This document shows positions 50,030 through 52,983 of a stretch of 64,000 nucleotides of DNA, in pieces. Below the pieces are notes generated by a model, which was given only the letters and a program-made list of their open reading frames with translations, did no database searches and was not told the DNA's origin. The first letter of the stretch is position 1; each line of letters starts with the position of its first letter. The DNA comes from Patescibacteria group bacterium (GTDB taxonomy: Bacteria; Patescibacteriota; Patescibacteriia; GWA2-46-9), in NCBI GenBank assembly GCA_041660005.1, contig JBAZXG010000002.1, positions 24,356 through 88,355 on the forward strand, written 5' to 3'. A program made the position numbers and the translations under genes.

Positions 50030-51122
50030 CTACTGTACTACCTGTTTACGCTCAAAATTATTCCTAATGAAGCATGACTCCTCATAGCCGTTACAATGCT
50101 GTACCAATCCGAGATACGACTGCACGACTTGCTGAAACCTTACGTCATCGGTAGCCTCAATCTTAACGTCCAAATCGGCTTCAAAGAGCCGCTTGAACAT
50201 CCGCCGGCGCGACGTTGTTCTCAAAACTCGGTGATGCGGTAATATAACATACCCGAGAAAATCGATTCCTTGGCTCAGTTTTCTGATAGAGACTTTCCTC
50301 GGATGTAGTTCCAAGAGTAACTTTTCTTGAAGAAATGTCCTTACTCTTCCTAAAACCTCCTCTAGATACTCTGGATCTCTATGAACAAAAACAAAGTCAT
50401 CTGCATAGCGAAAATAATGTCGAATGTGCAAAGTATGTTTTACAAACTGATCAAGCTCGTTTAAGTATATGTTGGCAAAAATTTGTGAAGTGAGATTACC
50501 GATAGGAAGCCCCGTGCTAAGAAGCTGGTCGGAACGCCGAGAGAGAGAGAGAGAGAGAGAGAGAGAGGGGGGGGGGGGATTTTGTCCTCACCGTAAAGCT
50601 ACATAGTACCTCTCGGAGTAACCAAAGAAGGCTGGTATCGCTTATTTTGTTCTCAATCAATGCTAAAAGTTTCTGGTGATTCACGCTGTCAAAGAATTTT
50701 CTGATATCGCACTTCAGGACATAGCAGGGCTGTGTGTAATTACGGCTCACTTTTCTCAGAGCACGTGAAAGATTCTCTACCGCAAGGTGTGTCCCCCGTT
50801 CTGGCCGAGAGGCATACGAATGGAAAATAAATGTCGGTTCAAATATACCCGACAACCCTCGCCATACGGCATGGTGCACCAAGCGATCACGCACACTCGC
50901 TTTGCTAATCACGCGGTGTTTCGGGTCATGAATATGAAAGATGTGATATGAACCATGGCGATACCGTTGTGCTCGTAACTCCTCATGCAGGGTAAAGATA
51001 TTGTCTTCTAGATAGCGTTCAAAATGCTGCACGTCAGGCTTACCACGTTTCCCGCACTTAAACTCATCCCAGCATTGAAACAGATGTTCGAGGCTTATTA
51101 TTTCACTATAACTTTTATGCAT
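50030..51122 (-). pseudogene. DGR reverse transcriptase; reading frame interrupted by a (GA)14G12 tract at 50539..50578 (N-part 50517..51122/51167, C-part 50030..50431)
   Basis: N-part has RVISKASVRDRLVHHAV and YVLKCDIRKFFDSVNH RT motifs; out-of-frame continuation encodes GLPIGNLTSQIFANIYLNELD (DGR RT hallmark) then YADDFVFV and LELHPRKVSIRKLSQGIDFLGYVI; frames differ by 1 nt. Confidence 0.8.
50539..50578. repeat. simple sequence tract (GA)14 followed by G12 inside the RT gene
   Basis: seen directly; length 40 nt is not a multiple of 3 and separates two in-motif RT segments. Confidence 0.9.
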
Positions 51123-51485
51123 ACATCCCCTATAACTAAAGTGCAGCAAGAAATACCGATTGTGCAAAAACTCTACGATCTCTACAAAACCTTCTACGGC
51201 TTCGCCGTGCTTTTTCCGAAGAAAGATAAGTACACACTCGGCGCAAAGTGTGAACAGTACATAATCAACACACTGGAATTGATACTGGCAGCAAGTGCAG
51301 TTACTCCGGCAGAGAAGCTTGGTCTACTACGTCAAGCAAACGTAAAGTTCGATACGCTTAAGGTATTTCTTCGATTATCCCGTGAGATTGGAGCAATCGA
51401 CGCGAAAAAATATCTTGTCCTCCAGAGAGAAATTCAAGAAATTGGTCGCATGCTTGGCGGCTGGCAACGGTCGCTCAGTGCATAA
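51117..51485 (+). CDS. avd: DGR accessory variability determinant Avd (four-helix-bundle protein)
   Basis: 122 aa; KLYDLYKTFYGFAVLFPKKDKYTLG...EIGRMLGGWQRS resembles Bordetella phage bAvd (..EVGRILGSWIAR) and the four-helix-bundle family; start ATG overlaps RT start in palindrome ATGCAT. Confidence 0.75.
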   Translation: MHTSPITKVQQEIPIVQKLYDLYKTFYGFAVLFPKKDKYTLGAKCEQYIINTLELILAASAVTPAEKLGLLRQANVKFDTLKVFLRLSREIGAIDAKKYLVLQREIQEIGRMLGGWQRSLSA

Positions 51486-51544
51486 TCAACATCGGGGACC
51501 TGTAAGAACAGAATCCCCGAGCCAACTGCTATCGTAGACACAAT

Positions 51545-51663
51545 CCGAGGAAGGACACTCCACCAGAGTAGTTGTCGTTCGCATTCGCAAGATTCGTCCT
51601 GTTGTCGAACTCGAGCTTATCGTCGTTCGGGTTCAGGTAGAGCGAGTACTCAGCGGACTGCCA
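51545..51663 (-). repeat. DGR template repeat (TR)
   Basis: 119 nt about 89% identical to 52085..52203; 12 of 13 differences are at TR adenines (coding strand). Confidence 0.85.
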
Positions 51664-51965
51664 GAATATACCATTCCCCACCGATATGCACCGGCCCTCG
51701 GCCAGAGTTTCCTCTAGCTCCGAGCCTGAATTTTATTCGGTTCATTAGAGAACCCTAGAAAATGGTACGTAGTGTCTACGTGCTCTGCATACGCTCTGGC
51801 AATCAAGTATTTCCTTACCTGACAACTACCAGACTCTGATACATTGATGAGCATGAAGGATTTCGGCGGCCGTGATTAGATGAAGCCAACCACGGTACAT
51901 GAGCCTAATCTCAAAAGCAGTGTAGCATCAGTTCTCGTTTGTTGAAAAATTTTGAAAAAGGAAAA

Positions 51966-51990
51966 GCGGCATGACTGGAAATCATGCCGC
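51966..51990 (-). terminator. terminator hairpin for the DGR target gene (GCGGCATGA/TCATGCCGC), T-run on minus strand
   Basis: 9 bp stem, followed on minus strand by ttttcctttttcaaaattttt. Confidence 0.55.
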
Positions 51991-52080
51991 TGTCCGTAGG
52001 AGGGATCCGGAAGAAAACCGGAAGACCAAAAACCGAAATCCTTGGTCCAAGGTTCAAACTTCCGAAACCCGAAGTCCACA

Positions 52081-52983
52081 CTACCCGAGGAAGGACACCC
52101 CACCAGAGGAGTCGTCGCACGCATGCGCAAGAGCCGTCCTGTTGTCGAACTCGAGCTCCTCGTCGTGCGGGAGCAGGTAGAGCGAGTACTCAGCGGACTG
52201 CCACTGGTAGGCGGAGAGGTCGATCACCGGGGTGTTGTTGTCCCGGCAGATGACCTCTGGCCACATGATGGCTGAGAGGATGGCGTTGAAGCCGTTGAGG
52301 ATGAACCCCTCCGGCAACGTCGCCATCTGCTCACGCTGGGCGTGCACCGAGAATCCCTGCGTTGCACAAGGCAGCTCGATCGTGGCGATCGGACCTTCCT
52401 TGGCGCGAACGAGGAGAAGATCGAGCCGACTCTCCGGCACGACCGTCACTTGCCCTTCGAGCTGACCCCGACGGTGGTTGGTAAAACCACGACCAGGGAA
52501 CTCGGCCTTGTACGCACGCTCGAGCGCCGAGAGAAGAAACTCGAGCATCTGGCCGTGGTCGTGGACAACCATCTGCGGAACGATGATTGGCAGGTGCACA
52601 CCCATCCCGACGTTCACCACCGAGGAATCGTCGAGGATGACCATGAGACGGCCGACCTCGTCCTCGAACCAAGCCGCGTCGGGCAACACGATGTTGCCTT
52701 CGAAGGCGTGATCCATGCGCTCGCGACGAGCTGCGTAGTCAATGACCTCCGGCTGGAGCAGATGGTACGCGCGATTGGCGTCGCAGACCTTGGCCTTGAT
52801 GCCACGAGGTGGAATACGCCGACCGTGACGATCGAAGAACATCGAGATGACCTCTTCGATCGTTACCTTGGCACCGGCCAAGATTGCGTTCACGGCTCCG
52901 AGCCCGTCGCCGCCGTAGACGCATCCCAGCAGATCGATGAGCTTCTCGTTCTGATTCCCTGTCAAAGATCCGTACTTTGCCAT
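52081..52983 (-). CDS. DGR variable (target) protein; VR occupies the last about 40 codons
   Basis: 300 aa, GC-rich; C-terminus ...QSAEYSLYLLPHDEELEFDNRTALAHACDDSSGGVSFLG aligned to TR-encoded ...QSAEYSLYLNPNDDKLEFDNRTNLANANDNYSGGVSFLG (Asn AAC/AAT codons diversified). Confidence 0.8.
   Translation of the reverse strand: MAKYGSLTGNQNEKLIDLLGCVYGGDGLGAVNAILAGAKVTIEEVISMFFDRHGRRIPPRGIKAKVCDANRAYHLLQPEVIDYAARRERMDHAFEGNIVLPDAAWFEDEVGRLMVILDDSSVVNVGMGVHLPIIVPQMVVHDHGQMLEFLLSALERAYKAEFPGRGFTNHRRGQLEGQVTVVPESRLDLLLVRAKEGPIATIELPCATQGFSVHAQREQMATLPEGFILNGFNAILSAIMWPEVICRDNNTPVIDLSAYQWQSAEYSLYLLPHDEELEFDNRTALAHACDDSSGGVSFLG
52085..52203 (-). repeat. DGR variable repeat (VR) at the 3' end of the target gene
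   Basis: see TR; adenine-specific substitution pattern. Confidence 0.85.

What the first reader, a model, noticed from the sequence alone, without database searches (positions are those of the whole stretch)
50030..52983. Complete diversity-generating retroelement: target gene with C-terminal VR, TR, Avd and RT
Two 119 bp repeats are present at 51545..51663 (TR) and 52085..52203 (VR). The VR forms the last about 40 codons of the 300 aa GC-rich ORF 52081..52983. TR and VR differ at 13 positions. Twelve of these are adenines on the coding strand of the TR that are replaced by G, C or T in the VR. This A-specific pattern is the hallmark of DGR mutagenic homing. At the protein level several Asn AAC/AAT codons in the TR have become L, H, A, C, D and Y/S in the VR. 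The TR lies next to a gene whose product has the bAvd-like C-terminal motif (EIGRMLGGWQRS). It also lies next to an RT carrying the DGR-specific GLPIGNLTSQ-FANIYLNELD motif and YADD. avd and the RT are divergent, and their start codons overlap in the palindrome ATGCAT (51117..51122). That arrangement is unusual, because in most DGRs avd and RT are co-directional. The target protein has no signal peptide, and its non-variable part is not a recognisable C-type lectin. It may therefore be a novel DGR target scaffold.
Basis: partly seen in the sequence, partly recalled or inferred. Interest (0 to 1): 0.85.

Follow-up and report, generated by a model that had tools for sequence, protein, structure and literature searches.

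The report
Protein-diversifying retroelement with slippery off-switch
This is a genuine diversity-generating retroelement (a system that rewrites one protein's binding tip) in an ultra-small Patescibacteria bacterium. Its reverse transcriptase gene is knocked out of frame by a slippery run of repeated bases, and comparison with relatives indicates this is a reversible on/off switch for hypermutation that I found described in no paper I could search.

Summary
The TR/VR observation is confirmed: 119-nt repeats, 13 mismatches, 12 at TR adenines (p about 3e-7). Avd passes NCBI's DGR-Avd model. The RT's closest solved relative is a 328-aa RT chain that I recall as the Bordetella DGR RT.

A 40-nt tract, C12(TC)14 (window 50539-50578), lies between RT motifs 3 and 4 and puts motifs 4-7 (GLPIGNLTSQ, YADD) out of frame.

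This is clade-wide:
- All 16 RTs of the window's clade carry a (CT)n, (GA)n or poly-G tract at that loop.
- Of 24 distinct alleles, 7 are in frame and 17 are out.
- All 58 tract-less relatives are in frame.
- Near-identical contigs differ only in tract length and in VR.
- The downstream half stays under purifying selection (dN/dS 0.09-0.18).
- Sister lineages carry such tracts in avd instead.

I read this as phase-variable DGR activity.

Other points:
- TR belongs to its own transcription unit, with a covariation-supported structured leader of about 250 nt whose helix clamps the TR 3' end. Relative to the Bordetella DGR RNA, the arrangement is permuted.
- The divergent avd/RT arrangement is normal for this clade.
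- The VR-bearing domain has a C-type-lectin fold.
- The DGR lies in a candidate tRNA-Ser integrative island.

The parts
52081..52983 (-). Target gene, 300 aa. It has an N-terminal alpha/beta domain with no known relative and a C-terminal C-type-lectin-like domain. No Pfam, NCBIfam, PHROG or PADLOC hit. GC 0.61, GC3 0.78.
52078..52203 (-). Variable repeat (VR). It covers the last 40 codons plus the stop of the target. A-derived substitutions span 52084-52173.
52000..52077 (-). Conserved T/G-rich 'CTTNGG' repeat region with small palindromes, immediately downstream of VR. Candidate recipient-site (IMH-flank/cruciform-like) element; function inferred.
51965..51991 (-). Intrinsic-terminator-like hairpin (12 pairs) followed by a T-run, ending the target transcript. 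Present at the same place in related loci.
51919..51927 (-). Extended -10-like box TGCTACACT (TGnTAnAnT, conserved in 12 of 13 loci), about 4-10 nt before the conserved start of the leader. Candidate promoter of the TR RNA.
51664..51915 (-). Structured leader of the DGR RNA, about 250 nt, with 9 helices and conserved blocks GAGTAGGCT, CGCCGAAATCC, TAGACACTAC and CCGAATAAAATTCAG. Not in Rfam.
51538..51663 (-). Template repeat (TR). It reads as WQSAEYSLYLNPNDDKLEFDNRTNLANANDNYSGGVSFLGL. Adenines are concentrated at codon positions 1 and 2.
51772..51781 (-). 5' arm (ACGUAGACAC) of the long-range helix. It pairs with 51532-51541 and is followed by the conserved unpaired UAC (51769-51771), a candidate priming region.
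51532..51541 (-). 3' arm (GUGUCUACGA) of the long-range helix, starting 4 nt after the end of TR. Together with the helix 51757-51768 / 51668-51679 it encloses TR.
51484..51527 (-). Stable hairpin (whole 62-nt TR-to-avd interval folds at -23.4 kcal/mol) between the TR unit and the convergent avd stop codon. Related loci have a bidirectional-terminator-like hairpin here.
51117..51485 (+). avd, 122 aa, the DGR accessory variability determinant. It is convergent with TR and divergent from the RT.
50579..51122 (-). RT N-terminal half (motifs 1-3), frame 0. Read-through of the tract ends at a stop codon at 50517-50519.
50539..50578 (-). Simple-sequence tract C12(TC)14 on the coding strand, in the loop between RT motifs 3 and 4. 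Its 40 nt (3n+1) put the downstream half out of frame. Loss of one C or gain of one TC unit restores the frame.
50030..50538 (-). RT C-terminal half (GLPIGNLTSQ, YADD, thumb), +1 frame. It is open from the start of the tract to the stop codon and has no start codon of its own upstream of GLPIGN.

Best explanation
**What it is.** A cellular DGR of the Patescibacteria-specific clade, carried on a candidate integrative island of about 14.7 kb next to tRNA-Ser.

**Layout on the minus strand**
- The target gene ends in VR and its own terminator.
- A separate promoter then drives an RNA made of a structured leader of about 250 nt, followed by TR.
- Two helices (51757-51768 with 51668-51679, and 51772-51781 with 51532-51541) bracket TR. 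The end of TR is thereby held next to a conserved leader segment.
- By analogy with Bordetella Sp-A56 cis-priming, the RT-Avd complex would start adenine-mutagenic cDNA synthesis there. This step is inferred.
- avd is read convergently and the RT divergently from avd.

**The distinctive feature.** A hypermutable polypurine/polypyrimidine tract, C12(TC)14, sits in a disordered surface loop between RT motifs 3 and 4.
- Slipped-strand gain or loss of repeat units moves motifs 4-7 in and out of frame.
- DGR mutagenesis itself would therefore be phase-variable.
- In this assembly the switch is OFF, one slip away from ON. The VR carries the record of earlier activity.

**Shown versus inferred**
- Shown: all the parts; the tract and the frame break; tract-length polymorphism between near-identical relatives; purifying selection on the downstream half; the RNA secondary structure by covariation.
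- Inferred: that switching is frequent and reversible within a population; that it is adaptive; the priming site.
For: **DGR identity**
- TR/VR pair with A-specific mismatches.
- Avd passes its models.
- The RT's best PDB match is 8ub7_A, E = 1.5e-47.
- Thirteen related loci show 13-23 TR-to-VR mismatches, nearly all from A.

**The switch**
1. The frame break is located exactly at the tract.
2. All 16 taxa of the window's RT clade carry a (CT)n, (GA)n or G10-12 tract at the same loop. The motif turns over between taxa, and tracts have arisen independently in the sister clade.
3. Of 24 distinct tract-bearing alleles, 7 are in frame and 17 are out. All 58 tract-less relatives are in frame. Fisher p = 2e-12. 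The ON fraction does not differ from 1/3.
4. All 17 OFF alleles are open in the N-frame up to the tract end and in the C-frame from the tract start. Each is one repeat unit away from ON. Their C-halves are intact at 146-163 codons, except one that runs on to 349.
5. dN/dS of the half downstream of the shift is 0.09-0.18, including OFF-OFF pairs.
6. Near-identical contigs differ only at the tract and in VR.
   - L003 (CT)16 OFF, L021/L022 (CT)14 ON and L024 (CT)21 OFF have 0-10 other differences over 4-8.5 kb.
   - L028 (AG)10 ON and L030 (AG)9 OFF are identical over 2.9 kb except for 20 VR substitutions, mostly at TR-adenine positions, and one AG unit.
7. Protein clusters at 90% identity or more contain the ON form and both OFF frames.
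8. The 120 best hits to the N-half are all truncated ORFs of 156-261 aa from Patescibacteria. Of these, 109 end just after an RE, GGG, LSLSL or PPP peptide.
9. In 550 kb of related loci there are 33 long simple repeats. Twenty-eight are at this RT loop. The other 5 lie in the 5' coding end of avd, with 1 ON and 4 OFF.
10. An AlphaFold model of the ON homolog P0173 has pLDDT above 90 except for a probably miscalled N-terminus and the tract-encoded loop, residues 228-240.

**The RNA**
- RNAalifold predicts 65 pairs.
- On 55 leader and long-range pairs, 95.1% of cells are paired, against 78% after shuffling and 43-50% after sliding. Forty-three pairs show double changes, and 0 of 500 shuffles reach the observed values.
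- A covariance model of the leader core hits 60 of 97 sources, one hit per locus, always on the RT strand.
Against: - There are no read-level data for this population. Only one allele (OFF) is on record for the window's own RT.
- A one-base error in a C12 run cannot be excluded for this particular assembly.
- An ON fraction of 29% is what neutral drift of tract length gives. There is no direct sign of selection for either state.
- The L003/L021/L024 group appears to lack a separate TR, either by VR/TR deletion or by assembly collapse. Tract polymorphism there may therefore occur in a defunct element.
- Slippage rates in Patescibacteria are unknown.
- The priming site and the role of the leader are inferred only by analogy with Bordetella (bioRxiv 10.1101/2023.10.23.563531).
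- Paul et al. 2017, the main survey of DGRs in the CPR, was not available to me. Prior mention of these features cannot be fully excluded.
Confidence: 0.72

Rival explanations
1. Decaying element. The RT is a pseudogene inactivated by a runaway simple repeat, and the tract-length differences are neutral noise in dead genes.
For: - The RT is out of frame in the window and in 17 of 24 alleles. That is the neutral 2/3 expectation.
- The L003 group seems to have lost its separate TR.
Against: - Both halves are free of stop codons in 17 of 17 OFF alleles.
- dN/dS of the downstream half is 0.09-0.18, even between two OFF alleles.
- ON and OFF alleles with identical flanks coexist.
- VR has changed between L028 and L030 while everything else stayed identical.
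- Tracts arose repeatedly at the same tolerant loop, and independently in avd.
Confidence: 0.07
2. Assembly or sequencing artefact. The tract is real, but its length in this assembly is off by one or two bases, so the true consensus gene is in frame and constitutively expressed.
For: - C12 next to (TC)14 is error-prone for short reads.
- The independently assembled Logan contig L001 stops 5 C into the tract.
- L046 and P0328 also end inside their tracts.
Against: - The JGI gene call on the same 238-kb contig gives the same OFF tail (P0327).
- Out-of-frame tracts occur in many assemblies from different projects and sources, including dinucleotide tracts of only 7-9 units.
- All three frames are seen repeatedly in near-identical genes.
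Confidence: 0.1
3. RNA-level recoding. RNA-polymerase stuttering or ribosomal frameshifting on the tract yields a fixed small fraction of full-length RT from any allele. The tract would then throttle RT dosage rather than switch it. This is not exclusive of DNA-level switching.
For: - Long homopolymer and dinucleotide tracts are slippery for polymerases in general (established knowledge).
- The sequence from the tract to motif 4 is open in both relevant frames in all alleles.
- A persistently OFF majority is compatible with a need for only trace amounts of RT.
Against: - DNA-level length variants that change the frame are directly observed between near-identical contigs.
- No frameshift-stimulating structure or heptamer is conserved.
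- The motif varies among CT, GA and G, whereas recoding signals are usually sequence-specific.
Confidence: 0.12

Closest known systems
Bordetella phage BPP-1 DGR (mtd-VR, avd, TR, Sp, brt)
   Same: - Adenine-specific TR-to-VR information transfer.
- VR at the C-terminus of a C-type-lectin-fold protein.
- An Avd four-helix-bundle partner.
- An RT with the LPIGxLTSQ motif. 8ub7_A is the best PDB match.
- An RNA duplex abutting the 3' end of TR, and a second duplex bracketing TR, as described for TR:Sp and avd:Sp in bioRxiv 10.1101/2023.10.23.563531.
   Different: - Gene order and strands differ. Here avd is antisense to TR and divergent from the RT, and TR has its own promoter and terminator.
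- The structured RNA lies upstream of TR rather than downstream, where Sp lies. The topology is permuted and resembles a retron.
- The RT carries a frame-shifting simple-sequence tract. Bordetella bRT has only a short loop at that position.
- The element is cellular and island-borne rather than in a phage tail locus.
Patescibacteria/CPR-restricted DGR clade (Paul et al. 2017; 'DGR clade 2' of Roux et al. 2021, PMC8144416)
   Same: - Host phylum.
- RT relatives are all from CPR MAGs.
- The element is cellular rather than viral.
- The target has no annotation.
   Different: The papers I could read (PMC8144416, PMC5758913, PMC11661182) mention no RT or avd simple-sequence tracts, no frame-shifted RTs and no 5' leader RNA. 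Paul et al. 2017 could not be read.
Simple-sequence contingency loci (phase variation in Neisseria, Haemophilus, Campylobacter; e.g. PMC3315296, PMC5084427)
   Same: - An intragenic homopolymer or dinucleotide tract.
- ON and both OFF frames among close relatives.
- An otherwise intact ORF.
- The tract is placed where in-frame length changes are tolerated.
   Different: - The switched gene is not a surface or restriction-modification gene. It is the enzyme of a second, targeted hypermutation system, so one mutator gates another.
- The host is an uncultivated phylum in which I found no report of simple-sequence phase variation.
- Switching rate and reversibility are untested.
Retron msr-msd RNA
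   Same: A 5' structured RNA and a 3' template are joined by a long-range helix formed by flanking inverted repeats. This places the template's 3' end beside a conserved unpaired nucleotide in the 5' part.
   Different: - The RT is of DGR type, not retron type. The NCBIfam retron models score far below their cut-offs.
- The template is a coding-like TR with a cognate VR.
- Branch priming here is only an inference.

Membership tests
Diversity-generating retroelement | TR/VR repeat pair whose differences are (almost) only at TR adenines | tested here: met
   12 of 13 mismatches (13 of 15 in the extended repeat) are at TR adenines; p = 3.4e-7
Diversity-generating retroelement | RT of the DGR lineage with the (I/L)GxxxSQ motif and YxDD | tested here: met
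   LPIGNLTSQ and YADD are present. PF00078 hit at 2.7e-25. The best PDB match is 8ub7_A at 1.5e-47, against about 1e-24 for group II and retron-type RTs.
Diversity-generating retroelement | RT gene intact and translatable as one polypeptide | tested here: not met
   The 40-nt tract at 50539-50578 shifts motifs 4-7 into the +1 frame, and there is no internal start codon. One slip restores the frame.
Diversity-generating retroelement | Accessory protein Avd | tested here: met
   NF033474 81.8 bits (cut-off 80); PF22296 68.9 bits (cut-off 40)
Diversity-generating retroelement | VR at the 3' end of a target ORF, in a C-type-lectin (or Ig) fold | tested here: met
Diversity-generating retroelement | IMH/IMH* at the 3' ends of VR and TR, with a recipient-specific element after VR | tested here: inconclusive
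   GC-rich ends GGTGGGGTGTCCTTCCTCGGG (VR) and GGTGGAGTGTCCTTCCTCGGA (TR) diverge after the repeat. A conserved T/G-rich repeat follows VR only. Function was not tested.
Diversity-generating retroelement | Ongoing diversification (VR heterogeneity in the population) | not testable with these tools
   No reads are available. In relatives L028 and L030, VR is the only substituted segment over 2.9 kb.
Simple-sequence phase-variable (contingency) locus | Intragenic repeat tract long enough to slip, whose length sets the reading frame | tested here: met
   C12 plus (TC)14. The frame break maps to the tract in the window and in all 17 OFF alleles.
Simple-sequence phase-variable (contingency) locus | Tract-length polymorphism between otherwise (near-)identical genomes, with ON and OFF states | tested here: met
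   Met in relatives: L003/L021/L024, L028/L030, and the clusters of P0173, P0221 and P0190. Not seen for the window's own population, for which only one allele is on record.
Simple-sequence phase-variable (contingency) locus | High-frequency reversible switching within a clonal population, with a phenotypic consequence | not testable with these tools
   This needs read-level or culture data.
Bordetella-type DGR RNA (TR flanked by RNA that forms a priming duplex and a stop duplex) | Conserved base-paired elements bracketing TR | tested here: met
   Helices at 51772-51781/51532-51541 and 51757-51768/51668-51679 show compensatory changes.
Bordetella-type DGR RNA (TR flanked by RNA that forms a priming duplex and a stop duplex) | The structured spacer (Sp) lies downstream of TR, between TR and the RT | tested here: not met
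   Downstream of TR there are only about 60 nt with one hairpin before the convergent avd. The structured 250 nt are upstream. No Rfam family matches.

The most novel reading that the evidence does not exclude
Two linked claims are not excluded by my evidence.

1. Across the Patescibacteria, DGR hypermutation is itself gated by contingency-type simple-sequence switches. These have evolved repeatedly in the RT (the loop between motifs 3 and 4) or in avd (its 5' end). Most cells would carry a silent DGR, and rare slippage variants would re-open diversification.
2. These DGRs use a circularly permuted, retron-like template RNA. The scaffold and priming RNA lie 5' of TR and are clamped to the 3' end of TR by a long-range helix.
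Probability: 0.55. Interest if true: 0.85.

Novelty: new variant of a known kind. Interest (0 to 1): 0.8.

Why it matters
How hosts restrain or time DGR mutagenesis is an open question. Roux et al. [quoted passage not shown]

A slipped-strand switch inside the RT or avd would be a simple, heritable and stochastic mechanism for such phases. It would also be a rare case of one localized mutator controlling another.

It has practical consequences:
- RT genes split by the tract are annotated as truncated or 'hypothetical' proteins. All 120 best N-half hits were such fragments. DGR surveys that require an intact RT will therefore undercount CPR DGRs or score them as inactive.
- The hypothesis can be tested at once on existing metagenomic reads.

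The conserved leader RNA widens the known architectures of DGR template RNAs. It offers a second natural system for studying cis-primed, adenine-mutagenic reverse transcription.

It also gives a new non-coding RNA family. One model found it in 60 of 97 sources.

Tried and rejected
- **Split RT made of two polypeptides.** Rejected. There is no ATG, GTG or TTG between the upstream stop and GLPIGN in the C-frame.
- **Chimeric assembly as the cause of the GC-rich target.** Rejected. TR matches VR. The Logan contig is identical over 7.6 kb. The same GC excess recurs in 13 of 15 related loci.
- **A-depletion by DGR action as the cause of the GC excess.** Not supported. Both A3 and T3 are low, and the excess is uniform along the ORF. 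It remains unexplained.
- **A known RNA family for the leader.** None at the gathering threshold or at E <= 10.
- **An ON allele of the window's own RT.** None found in the protein collection.
- **Prior description of RT or avd simple-sequence switching in DGRs, or of simple-sequence phase variation in Patescibacteria.** None found. Paul et al. 2017 is not held.
- **Sigma-70 promoter scan.** It found only the target promoter-like site at 53126-53098. The candidate TR promoter rests on conservation of a -10-like box.

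
Full report
**1. The observation**

51545-51663 and 52085-52203 align without gaps at an offset of 540 nt. 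There are 13 mismatches. Twelve are adenines on the minus (coding) strand of the lower copy, replaced by G, C or T in the upper copy. One is T>G. Adenine is 24% of the template, so this has p = 3.4e-7.

Homology extends to 51538-51663 / 52078-52203. The upper copy forms the last 40 codons of the 300-aa ORF 52081-52983(-). The substitutions recode N271L, N273H, K276E, N284A, N287H, N289C, N291D and Y292S. TR adenines sit mostly at codon positions 1 and 2.

avd (51117-51485, +) reaches NCBI's DGR-Avd equivalog (NF033474, 81.8 bits, cut-off 80) and Pfam bAvd. The identical target protein is on record as WC817_01715 of a 'Patescibacteria group bacterium' MAG, on a 238-kb contig.

**2.

The RT is two ORFs in different frames.
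- Frame 0 runs from the ATG at 51122 through motifs 1-3 and into a 40-nt tract. On the coding strand the tract is C12(TC)14, at window 50539-50578. Frame 0 stops at 50517.
- GLPIGNLTSQIFANIYLNELD, YADD and the thumb lie in the +1 frame down to 50030.
- Forty is 3n+1. Losing one C or gaining one TC unit restores a single 360-odd-aa RT.
- Conceptually repaired, the RT's best solved relative is 8ub7_A (E = 1.5e-47). The depositors name it only 'Reverse transcriptase'. I recall it as the Bordetella bRT of the bRT-Avd-RNA cryo-EM series. That chain has only a short loop where the tract sits.
- The tract is the only long simple repeat in the 64-kb window.
- A Logan assembly of run SRR18595301 yields a contig identical to the window over 7,643 nt. 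It ends five C's into the tract.

**3. The tract is a clade-wide, polymorphic frame switch**

I fetched 19 genome loci through the target family and 80 metagenome loci through the RT N-half.

*Distribution*
- Every RT in the window's clade (16 distinct taxa) has a (CT)n, (GA)n/(AG)n or G10-12 tract at the same loop. The motif turns over between taxa.
- In the sister clade, tracts appear sporadically and independently.
- In 550 kb of fetched loci there are 33 long simple repeats. Twenty-eight are at this RT loop.

*Frame state*
- Of 24 distinct tract-bearing alleles, 7 are in frame and 17 are out.
- All 58 tract-less relatives are in frame (Fisher p = 2e-12). The ON fraction does not differ from 1/3.
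- In all 17 OFF alleles the N-frame is open to the tract end and the C-frame is open from the tract start. Each is one repeat unit from ON.

*Selection on the downstream half*
- The C-halves of the OFF alleles are intact at 146-163 codons, except one (L077) that runs on to 349.
- dN/dS is 0.09-0.18, against 0.05-0.10 for the N-half. This includes pairs in which both alleles are OFF.

*Polymorphism between near-identical sequences*
- L003 (an Uhrbacteria MAG) and two ENA assemblies, L021 and L022, show 0-3 mismatches over 5-8.5 kb. The only difference in the DGR region is (CT)16 (OFF) against (CT)14 (ON). L003 also carries a 196-nt insertion elsewhere (see the side notes).
- L024 has (CT)21, the other OFF frame.
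- L028 ((AG)10, ON) and L030 ((AG)9, OFF) are identical over 2.9 kb. The exceptions are one AG unit and 20 substitutions, all in or beside VR and mostly at TR-adenine positions. The two hypervariable sites of the locus are the two expected ones.

*Protein collection*
- Clusters at 90% identity or more contain the ON form and both OFF read-throughs. Examples are ...LSLSLNSDNFLDTGLPIGN...LSQFRQFSRH* and ...LSIPTIFSTP*.
- The 120 best matches to the N-half are all truncated ORFs of 156-261 aa, from Patescibacteria where the source names an organism, many on long contigs. Of these, 109 end just after an RE, GGG, LSLSL or PPP peptide.

*Tolerance of the loop*
- An AlphaFold model of the ON homolog P0173 is confident everywhere except a probably miscalled N-terminus and residues 228-240, the tract-encoded loop. 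This explains why in-frame length changes are tolerated. One in-frame allele carries (GA)25.

*A second target of the same device*
- The five remaining long repeats in the loci lie in the first codons of avd on the opposite strand: (AC)7-14, C12 and (TC)7. One is ON and four are OFF.
- A second essential DGR gene has thus acquired the same device.

**4. Interpretation of the switch**

The simplest reading is slipped-strand phase variation of DGR activity. This is the mechanism of contingency loci in Neisseria, Haemophilus and Campylobacter, which is established knowledge (e.g. PMC3315296).

- Pseudogene decay is contradicted by the selection and integrity data.
- A general sequencing artefact is contradicted by recurrence across projects and by tracts as short as 7 units.
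- For the window itself, a one-base error in C12 cannot be excluded.
- RNA-level slippage may add leakiness and is not exclusive.
- Frequency, reversibility and benefit in vivo are not shown. The window's population is known from one OFF allele only.

**5. The template RNA**

Aligning the region from the VR end to the TR end in ten loci showed that the 420-nt 'spacer' is organised. In order, it contains:
- a conserved T/G-rich repeat after VR;
- a strong terminator (51991-51965);
- a conserved extended -10-like box (51927-51919);
- a conserved leader of about 250 nt (51915-51664) running into TR.

Structure:
- RNAalifold on 13 loci predicts 65 pairs.
- For the 55 leader and long-range pairs, 95.1% of cells pair, against 78% after shuffling and 43-50% after sliding. 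Forty-three pairs show double compensatory changes, and 0 of 500 shuffles reach any observed measure.
- Two helices bracket TR. One is 51757-51768 with 51668-51679, ending 4 nt before TR. The other is a long-range helix, 51772-51781 with 51532-51541, starting 4 nt after TR.
- In the window the long-range helix reads ACGUAGACAC/GUGUCUACG. Most relatives have AUUUAGACAC/GUGUCUAAAU, which is a compensated change.
- An invariant CACUAC joins the two 5' arms.
- After the 3' arm comes a hairpin. In relatives it looks like a bidirectional terminator shared with the convergent avd.

Distribution and comparison:
- No Rfam family matches.
- A covariance model of the leader core finds one copy per locus in 60 of 97 sources. 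The copy is always on the RT strand, typically about 0.5-0.7 kb upstream of the RT.
- In Bordetella the structured RNA (Sp) lies downstream of TR. It pairs with the TR 3' end and with a segment upstream of TR, and it primes from the 2'-OH of Sp A56 (bioRxiv 10.1101/2023.10.23.563531).
- Here the same logic seems to be realised with the scaffold upstream of TR, a topology like a retron's msr-msd.
- The last A-to-N change (51544) lies three bases from the helix. This fits cDNA initiation at that junction. Priming from the UAC or adjacent C is inference.

**6. The target**

- The family has about 439 representatives at 50% identity. Where the source names an organism, they are almost all Patescibacteria or unclassified MAGs, with a few MAGs labelled Gammaproteobacteria. 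There is no annotation.
- Across 30 homologs, the most variable columns are the same positions that are AAC/AAT in TR.
- The N-terminal domain has no detectable relative.
- I saw no signal peptide by eye. No predictor was run.

**7. Arrangement and context**

- avd is reversed and adjacent to the RT in all related loci with enough flank. The ATGCAT start overlap is shared by the closest relatives (offset -5).
- The DGR lies between copies of the 3' end of tRNA-Ser(cga) at 43508-43529 / 43919-43940 and 58186-58207.
- The same interval holds a large serine recombinase, an AriA/OLD-like ATPase, an ImmA-like protease and ParB-methyltransferases. This is a candidate integrative island of about 14.7 kb. 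Chromosomal transporter genes lie beyond it.

**8. Novelty and verdict**

The DGR as such is a new member of a known clade. Two features appear in none of the papers I could search or read:
- the simple-sequence frame switch in the RT, and in avd in sister lineages;
- the permuted, leader-first template RNA.

One key paper was unavailable. I rate it a new variant of a known kind, interest 0.8.

Noticed in passing
window 43508-43529, 43919-43940 and 58186-58207; tRNA-Ser(cga) 58190-58279(-): Copies of the tRNA-Ser 3' end (CGGAGAGGGAGGGAT) flank a segment of about 14.7 kb. It carries a large serine recombinase (55086-56540), an AriA/OLD-like ATPase (56574-58019), an ImmA-like protease (44413-44892), ParB-methyltransferases (45329-47333) and the DGR. 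This is a candidate integrative island, possibly with a tandem att site. The Logan contig L001 ends inside the tRNA.
   Followed up: partly
window 54910-55029 (-): A LOOT RNA (Rfam RF03000) scores 90.7 bits against a gathering score of 46.4. It lies inside the island, between the membrane-protein gene and the recombinase gene.
   Followed up: no
window 52081-52983 and target genes of L002-L032: The target ORF is far more GC-rich than its own RT, avd and flanks. In the window GC is 0.61 against 0.45, GC3 is 0.78 against 0.45, and A3 is 0.06. The excess is uniform along the ORF and sharp at its borders. It recurs in 13 of 15 related loci. Unexplained: both A and T are depleted, so it is not simple A-depletion.
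   Followed up: partly
L069:2968-2981, L071:27-46, L072:737-764, L091:231-242, L102:2975-2988: In sister lineages without an RT tract, a simple repeat lies in the first codons of avd on the opposite strand: (AC)7-14, C12 or (TC)7. One is in frame and four are out.
   Followed up: yes
L003:4260-4440 (same in L021, L024; protein P0004): In these Uhrbacteria contigs the target ends in a hybrid that is VR-like at its 5' end and TR-like at its 3' end. It runs straight into the post-TR motif and avd, with no separate TR. This is either a real VR/TR recombinational deletion, with different crossover points in L003 and L024, or an assembly collapse of the two repeats.
   Followed up: partly
L003:6646-6841: A 196-nt GC-rich insertion is present in L003 but absent from the otherwise identical L021. 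It is flanked by the direct repeat TATATTCTA, between the uvrC-like and ileS-like genes. It looks like a small mobile element.
   Followed up: no
window 52000-52077 (-) and the same position in 9 related loci: A conserved T/G-rich run of CTTNGG-like units with short palindromes (e.g. CCTTGGACCAAGG) lies directly after the target stop codon. It is present after VR but not after TR. It could be the recipient-site marker that distinguishes VR from TR.
   Followed up: partly
window 47975-49816 (+): A 613-aa ORF lies immediately beside the RT's 3' end, with no Pfam, PHROG or PADLOC hit. It may be island cargo of unknown function.
   Followed up: no
window 42161-42222 and 42506-42567: A 62-nt direct repeat (89% identical, 345 nt apart) lies just outside the island, near the acetyltransferase gene. 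Not examined.
   Followed up: no
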